From positions 186,001 through 250,000 of the forward strand of contig NW_026933222.1 in NCBI RefSeq assembly GCF_032062105.1: DNA of 64,000 nucleotides. Reading direction: 5' to 3'. The DNA is from Saccostrea cucullata (Eukaryota). This document shows, piece after piece, positions 9,001 through 24,000 of the stretch. Position numbers: made by a program. Each line of letters begins with the position of its first letter. Within the stretch, counting starts at the first letter, position 1.

Positions 9001-12000
9001 TCAGCAAAAACTTTAACCTTGTCCATAACTGTTGAGTGGGTGGGACTAGAGCTTTCATTGCATGGGTTAAAAACAGTTCACCTTTTGACCTTGACCTTAA
9101 AGTTTGGTCCACTTTAAAAAAAAAAACTTTAACCTTGACCATAACTTTTGAACCGTTAGTACTAGGGCTTCATATTTCAAAGGTGTATTCTTTGTGAGAA
9201 GGCCTACCTTTGGGTACCAACAACTTTGACCTTGGAGTTTAACTTACATTTGAGAAATTTCTGTAACGTGCCCGAGGTATGAGGCTTATGTAATTTGATC
9301 AAATCTCCAATGAAGGAGATATATTTCATTGTAACCAATATATATGGTATTTCCTGGTAATTTGTTAATTGGTAATCCTTGTTGATTTGGTAAATAAATC
9401 CCTGTGTTGGTCAGTAAAATATTGCATTGCAGAGACAAACAAGAGCACAACATAAGATTATGTAAATTTCAACAATGATTTAATTAACGTAATAAATGTA
9501 ATACAGATGGCTGGATAACCAAATAATCAAACAATGGTGATGTAATACATTTGGTCAGATCGGACGTCACATATTATGATTTGGTCACGTTTTATGATTT
9601 GGTAACGCTATTATGATTTGGTAAAATGATGACTGTTGATTTTCCGTAATAAATCAATTTGGTCAAATGTAAACAATGGTAAAACTTCGTAGAGACTGTT
9701 GAATTCCTTAATAAATCTATTTGGTCAATATAATCTATAGTAAAAACTCCCCAACCGTTAGTTATATCAGTATTTATGTACAATTTCTATGAAAGTTGTT
9801 GAGCAGACGTTCTGCAGAGTCAAACTGAAACTTCAGCGTCCGTGGCGACGCTTATATAGGGTAAACTACCGGACATGCGCAGTGCGCTTTACCTAACCAA
9901 AAGGGAAAGTATAGACCAAAATGGCAGACGATACTAACAACATCGCCGAAGTGGGACAAACGAATCCGGGATGTTTCGCGCCGATTCTGTTTCGCACTGA
10001 GATGGTTCGCGCCAGGATGATTCGCGCCGATATCGGTGCGAAACATCTCCCCCTCTTTTTTTAATATTTCATTTATAATGTAATAAATTAAGATCATTTA
10101 TTAAATCATAGATATAAATATGTGTTGTATGCTCAAAATCATGACTTTATAATATGCGGTGCCACAGGTAACGGATCGTAAATGTTAATATTGTGCCCGT
10201 TTGCTGAGCGTGTGTGTTCAACTATTTAATTGTAATTAGTTGGAGATCAAAAGGTGAGAATTATTTCATTACAGCAATTATAAAGTCGTACAGCAATTAT
10301 CTGCGAAAGCTTGAAAACATATAATTTGTGTTACTGAGAACATGTGTATAGAATAATTCACCAGGATGAGCTTAACATATTTTATTATTAATTTTGATAA
10401 ACTAGGCTTTATAAACGACAAATTATTTTTTCTTTCATCTCTATATTTCTCTACATCAATATTAATTTACAAGTGAACCATCTTTTTTTACGTCGTACGG
10501 TACTCCTCTTCCTATATTAATTTAATACATCACAGGAGCCAGAAAACAATTTATTTCATTCAAAAACCTAATTGTTTTCATTTAAACAAATCAATAAAAT
10601 ATTGTACTTTCATGTCAATATGTTTCAAAATTCATGAGATCAGGTTCTATAGTTTTAAATCCGAAATTAAAGTATTTTTGTGGGAAACTATATTAAAATA
10701 TACATGGACAAAAAAAGGGGGGCAGACAAACTTTGCGCACATGTAGTAACATAGAAACGCTGAAATAAAATTTGAAAGAATTATGCTTATGCAGAAGGAA
10801 ATCCAGTCAAAGCGCCCCCTAATAAAACCGTCCCGGTCAAAGCGTCCCATGATTTTGGTCAAAGCGTCCCCTTTATTTGGTCAAAGCGTCCCCTAATTTT
10901 GGTCAAAGCGCCCTTTATAGAATTTTACAGTAAAATGATGTTACAAAACCGCCCCAAAATATTGGTCAAAGCGTCCCCGGATTTTGGTCAAAGCGTCCCC
11001 GGATTTTGGTCAAAGCGCCCCGTACAGTAAAATGATGTTACAAAACCGCCCCCAAATATTGGTCAAAGCATCCCCTGATTTGGTCAAAGCGCCCCTTAAC
11101 ATTTTTTTCTTAAGAAAAATCGTCTGGGAAGCAATGGTCAAAACGTCCCCGATTTTGGTCAAAGCGTCCCCTGATTTTGGTTAAGGCACCCCCTAATATA
11201 TTTTTACAAACATGTTACGGAATAAAACTGTTTTGTATTTATAATTTTATCATTGTTTCGCAGTTAATTCTATAGGAGGCGCTTTGACCAAAATCAGGGG
11301 ACATTTTGACAATTACTTTGGGATCGACTCGAAACGCTTTTTTCCCTGTAAAAATATATAAGGGGGCGCTTTGACCAAAACCAGGGGACGCTTTGACCAT
11401 TTCTTGGGGACAGTAAAGATTGTTTCTATAAATATATTTTTTTCTGTAAAAATATGTAATTGTTAGGGGGCGCTTTGACCAAAATCAGGGGACGTTTTGA
11501 CTAAAATCAGGCGACGTTTTGACCATTATCATGATTATTTGGGGGCGATATTTTTTCTATAAAAATATGTTAGGGGGCGCCTTGACTAAAATCAGGGGAC
11601 GCTTTGACCATTATTTGGGGGCGATATTTTTCTATATAAATATGTAAGGGGGCGCTTTGACCCAAATCAGGGGACGCTTTGACAAATATTTGGGGGCGGT
11701 ATTTTTTCTATAAATTATGTTAGGGGGCGCTTTGACTTAAATTAGGGGACGCTTTGACCAACATCTGGGGGGAGGTATTTTTTATATAAAAGTATGTTAG
11801 GGGGCGCTTTGACCATAATCAGGGGGCGCTTTGACTAAAATCAGGGGACGCTTTGACTAAAGTTAGGGGACACTTTGACCGGGACGTTTTAATTAGGGGG
11901 CACTTTGACTGGGTCCCTGCAGAAGGGATATTTGATTTATACAATCTACCGGTACATCACCAACTTTTTTTTTATAGGTGCATAGACACAGATCTGAAGT

Positions 12001-21000: not shown

Positions 21001-24000
21001 ACACTCTATAGTAATGTTTACAGTTCAAATATAATTGCTGTAAGAGAAATCATGTACAAATAATGATTACAAACTAATTATACACATATGACATATAGGG
21101 GGGGGGGGTCTCAAAACACAAATATTTCACAGCCTACCTTTGGGTACCAACAACTTTGACCTTGGAGTTTAACTTGCATTTGAGAAATTTCATTCCTCGA
21201 TATGAGCTGCCATCAGTGTTTCACAAACACATTTTGTTTCTTCATGGGATTTAATGGTCTCTTGATAATAATACAACACTGTAATGGATCCCTAGAAGTG
21301 TACAGTAAAACTGATAAAGGTTGATGCATTGCCTATATAAAAGCAATAGAAATATGGAATTTAAAACAAAATGGTCAGTGTAGTACTCCGTAACAAATCA
21401 TACGTAGCAGATCAATTTAATTGTCTGTACTCGCAGTGTTAGTACTGCATTCCTAATTTACAATATCAATATATAGATTCAATTAAAACAAATAATGCTT
21501 TCAAATATATGATGTTGTTGTTTTTTTTTCAAAATAAAACAGACGCGATCCCACTGCACCACCAGAATCTCTAACCCAGGGGTCATGGATTTCATAGTAT
21601 TTGGAGATACATACTCGTACTTGCTCGGCATAACCATGGAGTACGTTTGTCATCTAAATACCAAGGAGCATAGATTTTTGAAGATTTTATGCATTTTTGT
21701 ACAATCAATAAAACCCCACCCTAATACGAGACTTTTAAAATTATTTCAAGGGCCACAAATTTGGAAAAATGCACCCTTGGCATCCATGACCATACAATTA
21801 TTTTTTCTAGTTAATACCCAAGAGCAGAAAAGATTTTCAAAGGATAAAAGCATTTTATTTATATGTATAATAGATCTTCGCCCTAACATCAGAATCCCTG
21901 ACCCAGGGCCATGAATTATACAGATTTGTACAAAGCACCTTTTTTTCATATTCATGCACATAGTTTGTCTGCCTTCTACATCGAAGCAGAGAAAAATGCT
22001 TTTTAAAGAATTAATGTATGTTCACAATTTGATCAATAGAGCCCCACCCAACATCAGGGTCCCTGATTAAAAGGCAATGAATTTCACAATCTTTGCTCTT
22101 TCTAACCATGCAATAATAGTTGTTTACTTAATAAATGGGAGCAGAGATTTTCGATGAAATATCTTTGATACTGAGAACCCAGTCCTTAGACCACCACTGA
22201 CCAAGGGACCATGAATTCACAACTTTAGAAGATTCATGTACATCCCTGCTTACCATAGTCATGCTCTTAATTTCATCCTCCCATCAAAACACTCCTACAT
22301 CTTTTTGATCACATGATAAAGCCTGTTGCATTATATGGCTGTGAAATTTGGGGAACCCTTACAGCACGCATACAAGATAAAAACAAACATTTATACGATA
22401 TTTTTAAAGAGTGGGAGGCAGAAAGCTTAAATATCAAATTTTGTAAATATCTATTGGAAGCTGGGAAGAAAAGTACTAATATTGCAATAATTTCTGAACT
22501 GGGAAGATACCCTATGTATTTTTCAATTATTCAAAACATCTTATTATACTGGCATAGGTTGCAATCAAGTCCAGAATCTTCCCTGTTACATAAAGCATAT
22601 ACAGAAAATATTAACCTTAGTCAAGGCAATATTAACTGCTGGTACAAAAATGTAATTTATTATAGTAAGAAAATTAATCTCTCATTACCAGAATGTAAAA
22701 CATACAAAAACACATTTTTAAAAAAACAAGTTAAGAAACATTTGAAAAAACACTTCCTACAATATTGGAAAATGAAATGTGAAGAGGGACTGGAATCTGG
22801 AAAACTTACTACTTATTTTATGTTTAAAGAAAATTTTATAATGGAAAAATATATGTACATTAAATCTCATGAAATAAGAAAATCCATTTGCAGATTTAGA
22901 ATAAGTGCTCATGACCTAAGAATTGAAAAAGGCAGATATGAATCTGTAAAAAATAATGCTGGTCAAAGAATCCCCTTAGATAGAAACAAAAGAATATGTT
23001 TCATGTGTGACCAAAACAATATAGAAGATGAATATCATTTTCTTACTGAATGCCCATTATATACTGAGGAGAGAGATAAATTTTTTCGTGATATCTCATT
23101 ACTAAACAAAAATTTCATATTATTATCAAAAGGAGACAAATTTCTCTGGTTAATGTCTAATGAAGATAATCTAATTATTACAAAGCTAAGTGAATATCTT
23201 GTCAAAGCCTTCAAAATAAGGCATAATGCCATGAGTTTTCATAAATAATGTTATAGACACATATTTATTTGTAAACTGGTATATATGTATATTGATAATA
23301 TTGATTTTGATTGCATGTTAATTAACAATTTGATAACCCCAACTGCTGCATCTACATGTCCAGTTACTTGTAATATTATATCAGATATATACATGTGTGT
23401 GTATGTGTGTTTATGTTTGTATATGTTTACTATAACCTTTCTTTTAGAACTTTCTATCTTGTCATTGTAAGAAACCTTTATGCCTTCTGGGCCCAAAATT
23501 GGAAATAAAATTATCTTATCTTATCTTATACTAATTTTCCAAGAGCAGAGAAGTTTATTTAAAGAGTAGTCCTGTTTGCAATAGAGCCCGCTTTACATCA
23601 GAGCCCCTGATCCAATAATATCTTGTAACTTTAGGGACACCTTTACTTAGCATTATTTAAACCATGTACTGTGTTTATGTGCTAAATATACAGGGAAAGA
23701 GATGATTTTGTTAGAGAGAATTTAAGCATTTTTAAAAAAATTATCATTAGAGCCCCGCCTTAACTCAAGAACTCTTGATCCCGGGGCCTTGCTTTTCAGA
23801 ATTTTGGTAAAAAGCTTTATGCTCATATCAATCATATTAACAGTTTGCTTTATGTCCAGGAGTAAAAAAGGGTTTTAAAGCTGGAATTAGTTTTGATCGT
23901 TTTAGCAACATACCTCAAATTAAAAAAAAATGATTTCCTTAAACATTTGATGTTATATTCTAAAAATGATGGAAATTAGTTCAGCGGTTCCTGAGAAGCT

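What the first reader, a model, noticed from the sequence alone, without database searches (positions are those of the whole stretch)
9202..21191. LTR retrotransposon flanked by a 60-bp duplication plus 7-nt microhomology: possible integrase-independent insertion
Seen: 9202-9261 and 21132-21191 are a 60-bp direct repeat with one mismatch, abutting both LTR ends exactly. The 7 nt outside the left LTR (AAATTTC, 9255-9261) equal the sequence between the PBS and the 5' LTR (19853-19859). Established: Gypsy integrase makes 4-6-bp TSDs and trims extra bases beyond the terminal CA. Inference: an unprocessed cDNA end annealed to the host by microhomology and was captured by DNA repair, which fits an element with a dead integrase.
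[Added by the scan's program, not by the reader: the finding's places include an assembly gap (unread letters, written N; its length is only estimated) at 17972 to 18124. Whether the letters on both sides are continuous or in frame is not known: test that first.]
Basis: partly seen in the sequence, partly recalled or inferred. Interest (0 to 1): 0.7.

Follow-up and report, generated by a model that had tools for sequence, protein, structure and literature searches.

The report
Retrotransposon insertion with 60-bp flanking duplication
A decayed Gypsy-type retrotransposon in an oyster genome is flanked by a 60-base duplication instead of the usual 4-6 bases and shows a 7-base match at one end, which looks like a rare insertion finished by host DNA repair, a kind of event already known from retrovirus experiments.

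Summary
9202-9261 and 21132-21191 are a 59/60 direct repeat. It abuts the TG and CA ends of an 11.9-kb minus-strand LTR element (9262-21131). The 7 nt outside the U5 end equal the 7 nt next to the 5' LTR, which are a 6-nt spacer plus the first PBS base. No 4-6-bp duplication is present. The one paralogous copy of the host repeat in the window carries the 60-mer region once.

The assembly gap is not a continuous or in-frame join. One side starts at the RNase H domain of a relative. The other side has no protease or RT similarity.

Best reading: an aberrant insertion. The U3 end was joined flush, and the unprocessed U5 tail annealed to a 7-nt host match. Repair synthesis then duplicated 60 bp. 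This mirrors ASLV/HIV aberrant integrations and Tf1 integrase-independent insertions (PMC5041404, PMC11042837).

The copy was probably already dead when it inserted, so its proteins came in trans.

Unverified: reads, the empty allele and other family copies. I rate it a new member of a known kind, of moderate interest.

The parts
9202..9261 (+). Left copy of the 60-bp host duplication. It abuts the outer (U5) end of the 3' LTR.
   Evidence: (family D9)
21132..21191 (+). Right copy of the 60-bp host duplication (59/60 identical to the left copy). It abuts the outer (U3) end of the 5' LTR.
9255..9261 (.). 7 nt of host flank (AAATTTC) identical to 19853-19859. Also present in the right copy at 21185-21191, so it was in the host before the insertion.
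   Evidence: (family D5)
9262..15113 (-). 3' LTR of the element, in three pieces (9262-9961, 12509-13064, 15106-15113) separated by two nested insertions. Against the 5' LTR: 1257 matches, 7 mismatches, 3 indel events.
9962..12500 (.). Nested insertion 1, 2539 bp. It has terminal inverted repeats, an 8-bp target duplication (9954-9961 and 12501-12508), and internal 22-bp and 75-bp tandem arrays in inverted orientation.
13065..15105 (+). Nested insertion 2, about 2.04 kb, lying 8 nt from the inner end of the 3' LTR. It ends in AATAAA plus a (TATC)n tail and may have a 3-bp duplication (AAT). It looks like a 5'-truncated non-LTR retroelement; this is inferred, with no family hit.
15114..15127 (-). 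Polypurine tract (13 of 14 purines on the minus strand), directly upstream of the 3' LTR.
16085..17954 (-). RNase H-integrase remnant of pol, a broken gene. Against residues 571-1193 of relative P0001: 347 of 597 aligned codons identical, 10 in-frame stops, 15 frameshift events.
17972..18124 (.). Assembly gap of 153 N (length only estimated). Left unfilled. All of RT, and protease if present, is either inside it or deleted.
18880..19428 (-). 183-aa ORF in the position where gag would lie. It has 5 unnamed relatives without Pfam domains. A gag identity is not shown.
19836..19853 (-). Primer-binding-site-like 18 nt. The minus strand starts TGG, complementary to a ...CCA 3' end. The tRNA was not identified.
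19854..19859 (-). 6-nt spacer between the PBS and the 5' LTR.
19860..21131 (-). 5' LTR, 1272 bp, TG...CA, uninterrupted.
8927..9201 (+). Left part of the host interspersed repeat (hairpin, GTCT microsatellite, internal units of about 116 bp) into which the element inserted.
21192..21251 (+). Right part of the same host repeat.
24034..24579 (-). Paralogous copy of the host repeat, about 70-87% identical. It carries the 60-mer region once (48 nt) between homologues of both flanks.

Best explanation
A defective Ty3/Gypsy-type LTR retrotransposon of an oyster, mobilised by proteins supplied in trans, was inserted by an aberrant, half-canonical event.

The U3 end of the linear cDNA was joined flush at its terminal TG, most simply by integrase acting on that end alone. 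The U5 end still carried the 6-7 bases that lie between the LTR's CA and the primer binding site. It was not processed and joined by integrase. Its 3' tail annealed to an identical 7-nt stretch of host DNA 60 bp away from the first joint, and host enzymes sealed it. Repair synthesis across the interval left the 60 bp on both sides.

Shown: the anatomy, the 60-bp repeat, the 7-nt identity, the absence of homology at the U3 junction, and the single-copy state in one paralogue.

Inferred: the order of events, the role of integrase at U3, annealing and repair at U5, and mobilisation in trans.
For: - The 60-bp repeat is 59/60 identical and flush with both LTR ends, with no 4-6-bp duplication.
- The 7-nt identity between the U5-side flank and spacer plus first PBS base has a chance of 3.6e-4 per position.
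- The U3 junction has 0 nt of homology, no truncation and no filler.
- The age of the duplication fits the insertion: 1 difference in 60 nt against 7 in about 1264 nt between the LTRs.
- The only paralogue of the host repeat in the window (1 of 1) has the 60-mer region once, between homologues of both flanks.
- Published parallels:
  - In aberrant HIV/ASLV integrations one end is normal, the other is inserted by host enzymes, and the host duplication is usually much larger than 5 bp (PMC5041404, passages read).
  - Tf1 and HIV-1 insertions without integrase favour sites matching the bases that follow the 3' LTR in the cDNA (PMC11042837, sections 8 and 13 read).
  - Natural HML-2 proviruses have 111- and 250-bp duplications (PMC5488345, passages read).
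Against: - This is a single locus, and no other copy of the family is in the window.
- No empty allele, orthologous site or reads could be examined.
- The N gap lies inside the element, so the two junctions are linked only by the scaffold.
- The single-copy evidence comes from a paralogue only 70-87% identical and 12 nt shorter in this region.
- The 7 nt cannot be assigned to cDNA or host, so retention of an unprocessed tail is not directly visible.
- Integrase action at U3 is not distinguishable from blunt end-joining.
- In Tf1, unique-site integrase-independent insertions also showed upstream homology to the PPT end and were thought to be truncated. Neither is seen here.
Confidence: 0.4

Rival explanations
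1. One reading: the whole insertion was integrase-independent. Both cDNA ends were captured by host repair at a staggered break whose 60-nt overhangs were filled in. The U5 end was joined by 7-nt microhomology and the U3 end by blunt end-joining.
For: The evidence is the same 60-bp duplication and 7-nt identity. Integrase-independent insertion guided by homology to primer-proximal sequence is documented (PMC11042837).
Against: The U3 end is complete to the terminal TG, with no homology, loss or filler. [quoted passage not shown] There is no match to the PPT end upstream, unlike the Tf1 logo. The "dead integrase" of this copy is no argument, because its other pol parts are dead or unread too.
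Confidence: 0.2
2. Both ends were joined by integrase, but in two uncoupled half-site reactions 60 bp apart. The 7-nt identity is a coincidence.
For: Both LTR termini are intact at TG and CA. The geometry that gives a duplication is the same as for normal integration (established knowledge, recalled).
Against: It needs a coincidence of about 4e-4 to 1e-3, or twice that if both junctions are counted as tests.
Confidence: 0.12
3. Assembly or scaffolding artefact. The two stretches on either side of the N gap come from different haplotypes or from two similar host repeats that each carry a copy of the family. On this reading the 60-bp overlap is not a property of one insertion.
For: The gap lies inside the element, and at least about 1.7 kb of expected pol sequence is unaccounted for. 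Both the element and the host repeat are repetitive. The two 60-mers differ at one base.
Against: Each junction lies in contiguous sequence, 8.7 kb and 3.0 kb from the gap. An ordinary insertion mis-joined in this way would still give a 4-6-bp overlap, so two separate insertions 60 bp apart would be needed. The 60-mers are 98% identical, whereas the paralogue in the window is 70-87% identical. Paralogous sodium/calcium-exchanger genes in the same orientation lie on both sides, as expected for one tandem locus.
Confidence: 0.12
4. Two ordinary insertions of the same family, 60 bp apart and in the same orientation on different chromatids or alleles, recombined within the element. The recombinant carries the interval twice.
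For: The product would look exactly like this, and the original short duplications would be invisible.
Against: It needs two independent hits within 60 bp, although no other copy of the family is present in 64 kb. It also needs the 7-nt coincidence.
Confidence: 0.04
5. The host repeat already had two tandem copies of the 60-mer, and the element landed between them.
For: The host repeat is built of internal tandem-like units.
Against: Those units are about 116 bp long and 70-82% alike, not 60 bp and 98%. An ordinary insertion would add its own 4-6-bp duplication, and none is seen. The paralogue has one copy.
Confidence: 0.02

Closest known systems
Aberrant retroviral integrations (ASLV vectors with one defective end; HIV-1 with suboptimal strand-transfer inhibitor or weak integrase mutants). 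PMC5041404, passages read.
   Same: One junction is normal at the LTR terminus and the other is made by host enzymes. The host DNA is most often duplicated, over far more than 5 bp.
   Different: Those are experimental infections of cultured cells, with duplications often of hundreds to thousands of bp and aberrant ends that are often truncated. Here the event is a natural germ-line insertion of a Gypsy-type element in an oyster, with a 60-bp duplication and both LTRs complete. The junction tables of that paper are in supplements that I could not see.
Integrase-independent insertion of Tf1 (and HIV-1) by single-strand annealing at sites homologous to primer sequences. PMC11042837, sections 8 and 13 read.
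   Same: The flank downstream of the 3' LTR matches the first bases that follow the LTR in the cDNA: 5 nt of the PBS in Tf1, and 6 nt of spacer plus 1 nt of PBS here.
   Different: In Tf1 the upstream flank also matches the end of the PPT, which is not so here. Most Tf1 events were tandem insertions at resident elements, and none is present here. Rad52 dependence cannot be tested from sequence.
HERV-K (HML-2) proviruses with 111-bp and 250-bp target-site duplications. PMC5488345, passages read.
   Same: A natural LTR element flanked by a direct host repeat far longer than 4-6 bp.
   Different: In HML-2 the pre-integration allele was sequenced for the 250-bp case. No microhomology or mechanism is given in the passages read. 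Those authors also raise a recombination-based "pseudo-TSD" model.
Canonical Ty3/Gypsy integration.
   Same: LTRs with TG...CA ends, a PBS, a PPT, and RNase H followed by integrase in pol.
   Different: The duplication is 60 bp, not 4-6 bp.

Membership tests
LTR retrotransposon, Ty3/Gypsy type | Two long terminal direct repeats ending TG...CA | tested here: met
   LTRs at 19860-21131 and 9262-15113 (the latter in three pieces): 1257 matches, 7 mismatches, 3 indel events. Termini seen.
LTR retrotransposon, Ty3/Gypsy type | PBS next to the 5' LTR and polypurine tract next to the 3' LTR | tested here: met
   A TGG... 18-mer lies 6 nt from the 5' LTR. A tract of 13/14 purines abuts the 3' LTR. The tRNA was not identified; the only tRNA-like gene in the window does not match beyond 7 nt.
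LTR retrotransposon, Ty3/Gypsy type | pol order RT - RNase H - integrase | tested here: inconclusive
   RNase H followed by integrase is present at 16085-17954 on the minus strand. The rve hit is 32.4 bits, just under Pfam's cut-off of 32.6, but relative P0001 matches at E 1.8e-46. RT is not among the read letters. A distant relative is named "Gypsy retrotransposon integrase-like protein 1".
LTR retrotransposon, Ty3/Gypsy type | 4-6-bp target-site duplication | tested here: not met
   The duplication is 60 bp and no short repeat is present at the junctions.
One-ended (aberrant) integration | One junction exactly at the LTR terminus, without homology or loss | tested here: met
   The U3 junction at 21131/21132 shows 0 nt of homology to either the PPT side or the host continuation.
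One-ended (aberrant) integration | Other junction made by host enzymes (extra or missing viral bases, short homology) | tested here: inconclusive
   A 7-nt identity is present. The 7 nt cannot be assigned to cDNA or host, and the enzymes are not testable from sequence.
One-ended (aberrant) integration | Host duplication (or deletion) much larger than the integrase stagger | tested here: met
   60 bp.
Integrase-independent single-strand-annealing insertion (Tf1 type) | Downstream flank homologous to the sequence following the 3' LTR in the cDNA | tested here: met
   7 nt, with a chance of 3.6e-4 per position.
Integrase-independent single-strand-annealing insertion (Tf1 type) | Upstream flank homologous to the end of the PPT | tested here: not met
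   The last bases before the U3 junction do not match the PPT end.
Integrase-independent single-strand-annealing insertion (Tf1 type) | Dependence on Rad52 annealing; absence of integrase activity | not testable with these tools
   This needs genetics or biochemistry. Sequence alone is silent.
True long target-site duplication (as in HML-2) | Pre-integration allele with a single copy of the duplicated stretch | tested here: inconclusive
   Only a paralogue in the window could be examined. It has one copy. No eukaryotic DNA collection was open.

The most novel reading that the evidence does not exclude
This oyster family has an unusually long 6-nt spacer between U5 and PBS and depends on a helper element's proteins. 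It may therefore insert habitually, not by accident, through annealing of its unprocessed U5 tail to matching host sequence. That would make it a natural metazoan germ-line counterpart of the integrase-independent pathway described for Tf1 in fission yeast.
Probability: 0.07. Interest if true: 0.65.

Novelty: new member of a known kind. Interest (0 to 1): 0.4.

Why it matters
Insertions of LTR elements that bypass or only half use integrase are well documented in cell culture and yeast. Few fossil examples in animal genomes have both junctions readable. A clean natural case with a complete element, a 60-bp duplication, a flush U3 end and a 7-nt match to the unprocessed U5 tail would show that this repair-assisted route leaves heritable insertions in a mollusc. 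It would also give annotation pipelines, which demand 4-6-bp duplications, a concrete example of what they discard. As one locus in a gapped assembly it is an anecdote until reads and other copies of the family are examined.

Tried and rejected
- **Whole-frame Pfam scan.** I scanned the tool-listed ORFs one by one instead. 1 of 18 ORFs had a hit, the integrase core.
At first LTR homology seemed to stop 8 nt short of the 5' LTR's outer end and no polypurine tract was visible. The missing 8 nt and the tract turned up at 15106-15127, beyond a 2-kb nested insertion.
- **Other copies of the LTR family in the window.** None was found; all hits of the element lie inside it.
- **Other copies in public DNA.** Only the bacterial/archaeal collection was open, and one scan with the LTR start gave 0 matches.
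- **ORF in the gag position.** It has 5 unnamed relatives without domains and no usable Atlas hit.
- **ORF of nested insertion 2.** No Pfam hit. The Atlas gave only unnamed clusters.
- **PBS tRNA.** Not identified. The single tRNA-like gene in the window does not fit.
- **A host gene spanning the insertion, as a test of the scaffold.** None was found. The insertion lies between two tandem paralogues.
- **Papers not held.** PMC3767498 and PMC1617299 are not in the library.
- **Literature searches for natural long duplications with microhomology in LTR retrotransposons.** Searches gave the three papers cited and nothing on molluscs. That is no proof that nothing is in print.
- **Pre-existing tandem duplication.** Rejected.
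- **AAATTTC as part of the LTR.** Rejected. The LTR would then not start with TG, and the right-hand host copy carries the same 7 nt.

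
Full report
**1. The observation**

The 60-mer at 9202-9261 recurs at 21132-21191 with one mismatch. These are the only two matches in the window at up to 3 mismatches, and 0 of 100 shuffles gave any match. 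The bases just outside the repeat differ on both sides, so it is exactly 60 bp.

Between the two copies lies an LTR element on the minus strand. Its 5' LTR is 19860-21131 (1272 bp, TG...CA). Its 3' LTR begins at 9262.

The 7 nt AAATTTC at 9255-9261 equal 19853-19859 (family D5), and the match ends at 7 nt. Base 19853 also pairs with the terminal A of a ...CCA primer. The 7 nt are therefore a 6-nt spacer plus the first base of the primer binding site (19836-19853). The same 7 nt close the right-hand 60-mer (21185-21191), so they belonged to the host before the insertion.

Outside the finding, this 7-mer occurs at 3.6e-4 per position and the 6-mer at 9.4e-4.

**2. Anatomy of the element**

At first the LTR homology seemed to end 8 nt short of the outer end of the 5' LTR, and no polypurine tract followed. 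Reading on showed why: two later insertions split the 3' LTR.
- A 2539-bp element with terminal inverted repeats lies at 9962-12500. It has an 8-bp duplication and carries 22-bp and 75-bp tandem arrays.
- An insertion of about 2.04 kb lies at 13065-15105. It ends in AATAAA and a (TATC)n tail and looks like a 5'-truncated non-LTR retroelement. This is inferred; there was no family hit.

The last 8 nt of the LTR (15106-15113) are followed by a tract of 13/14 purines on the minus strand (15114-15127). The three LTR pieces against the 5' LTR give 1257 matches, 7 mismatches and 3 indel events.

**3. The assembly gap, tested**

The window has one N run, 17972-18124. I did not fill it.

On its low-coordinate side the minus strand matches residues 571-1193 of a 1193-aa relative, P0001. 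This relative was found with the integrase-core ORF (E 1.8e-46, 73% identity). Its residue 571 lies at the start of its RNase H domain (Pfam domains of P0001). The outer bounds of the match are 16085-17954, which is 17 nt from the gap.

On the other side (18125-19859) none of the 11 relatives gave a tblastn match better than E 0.069. A frameshift-tolerant alignment of P0001 residues 1-570 scored 44, against 43-54 for five shuffled controls. The RNase H-integrase part scored 1284.

The letters on the two sides are therefore not a continuous or in-frame join. RT, and protease if the family has one, is either hidden in a gap much longer than 153 bp or deleted. That is about 570 residues of the relative, roughly 1.7 kb. 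I cannot tell which.

As a consequence, the two junctions lie in two contiguous stretches that only the scaffold links.

**4. State of the genes**

pol (RNase H-integrase part) is broken. Against P0001, 347 of 597 aligned codons are identical, with 10 in-frame stops and 15 frameshift events.

Only 1 of 18 ORFs scanned had a Pfam hit: integrase core, 32.4 bits against a cut-off of 32.6.

The 183-aa ORF in the gag position (18880-19428) has 5 unnamed relatives and no domain.

The LTRs differ by only 7 substitutions and 3 indels. I infer from this that most of the damage predates the insertion. The copy was then a non-autonomous passenger whose RT and integrase came from another element.

**5. 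The host site**

The element sits in an interspersed repeat with a hairpin, a GTCT microsatellite and internal units of about 116 bp.

One paralogue lies at 24034-24579 on the minus strand. It aligns with the left flank up to the 60-mer and with the right flank from the 60-mer onward. It holds the 60-mer region once, 48 nt long, between homologues of both flanks. That is 1 of 1 paralogue examined, at 70-87% identity. It counts against a pre-existing tandem duplication but does not replace the true empty site.

No 4-6-bp repeat is present at the junctions.

**6. The locus**

A complete sodium/calcium-exchanger gene maps exon by exon to 32466-26958 on the minus strand. It is 100% identical in its first exon to a protein named for Saccostrea cucullata.

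A 50%-identical paralogue starts at 1401 on the same strand and runs off the window. The insertion is thus intergenic between tandem paralogues. This mildly supports one continuous locus but is no proof. Nothing in the window was taken for human.

**7. Mechanism**

In element orientation, the U5 end reads LTR...CA followed by host bases identical to the 6-nt spacer plus the first PBS base. The U3 end is flush at TG. It has no homology to the PPT side or to the host continuation, and no loss or filler.

Published work describes events of this kind.
- When one end of ASLV or HIV-1 DNA cannot be used by integrase, "the good end" is integrated normally and host enzymes insert the other. The host DNA is most commonly duplicated over much more than 5 bp (PMC5041404, passages).
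- Without integrase, Tf1 and HIV-1 insert at sites matching the bases that follow the 3' LTR in the cDNA, through single-strand annealing (PMC11042837, sections 8 and 13).
- Natural HML-2 proviruses with 111- and 250-bp duplications exist (PMC5488345, passages).

My best reading (0.4) has three parts:
- integrase, or less likely blunt joining, fixed the U3 end;
- the unprocessed U5 tail annealed to the 7-nt host match 60 bp away;
- repair synthesis duplicated the interval.

Other rivals:
- uncoupled integrase reactions with a chance match (0.12);
- a scaffold or haplotype artefact across the gap (0.12);
- two neighbouring insertions that recombined (0.04);
- a pre-existing duplication (0.02).

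**8. What stayed unchecked**
- Reads, the empty allele, orthologous sites and other copies of the family. No eukaryotic DNA collection was open. One scan of the bacterial/archaeal collection found nothing.
- The identity of the primer tRNA.
- The true content of the gap.
- The supplementary junction tables of the cited papers.
- Two papers were not held.
- Searches found no mollusc example. That does not show that none is in print.

**9. Verdict**

This is a probable natural example of a known but rarely documented class of aberrant LTR-element insertion. I rate it a new member of a known kind, with interest 0.4.

Noticed in passing
9962-12500: A 2.5-kb element with terminal inverted repeats and an 8-bp target duplication is nested in the 3' LTR. 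Its interior consists of 22-bp and 75-bp tandem arrays present in both orientations. Possibly a non-autonomous DNA transposon that carries a satellite.
   Followed up: partly
13065-15105: A 2-kb insertion lies 8 nt from the inner end of the 3' LTR. It has a 137-aa plus-strand ORF, AATAAA and a (TATC)n tail, and looks like a 5'-truncated non-LTR retroelement. No family hit.
   Followed up: partly
26958-32466 (minus) and 1-1401 (minus): Two tandem paralogous sodium/calcium-exchanger genes. The first is complete, and its first exon is 100% identical to a protein named for Saccostrea cucullata. The first exons of the two genes are 50% identical.
   Followed up: partly
32607-32698: A 92-nt tRNA-Arg(TCT)-like gene, apparently with an intervening stretch, lies about 140 bp upstream of the exchanger gene's first coding exon on the opposite strand.
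   Followed up: no
54270-55505 and 57051-58511: Two satellite arrays: 7 copies with a period of 156 bp and 8 copies with a period of 166 bp.
   Followed up: no
33613-40446: hAT-like transposase ORFs (zinc finger and DUF4371 at 35806-37320; hAT dimerisation domain at 37961-38353). They lie among 100%-identical direct repeats of about 200 bp (33613-33811 with 39436-39634; 38742-38947 with 40241-40446). This could be a recent duplication or an assembly repeat.
   Followed up: no
22313-23248: A 311-aa plus-strand ORF about 1.1 kb from the insertion has no Pfam match.
   Followed up: no
15128-16084: About 1 kb lies between the end of the integrase match and the polypurine tract and has no recognisable coding content.
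   Followed up: no
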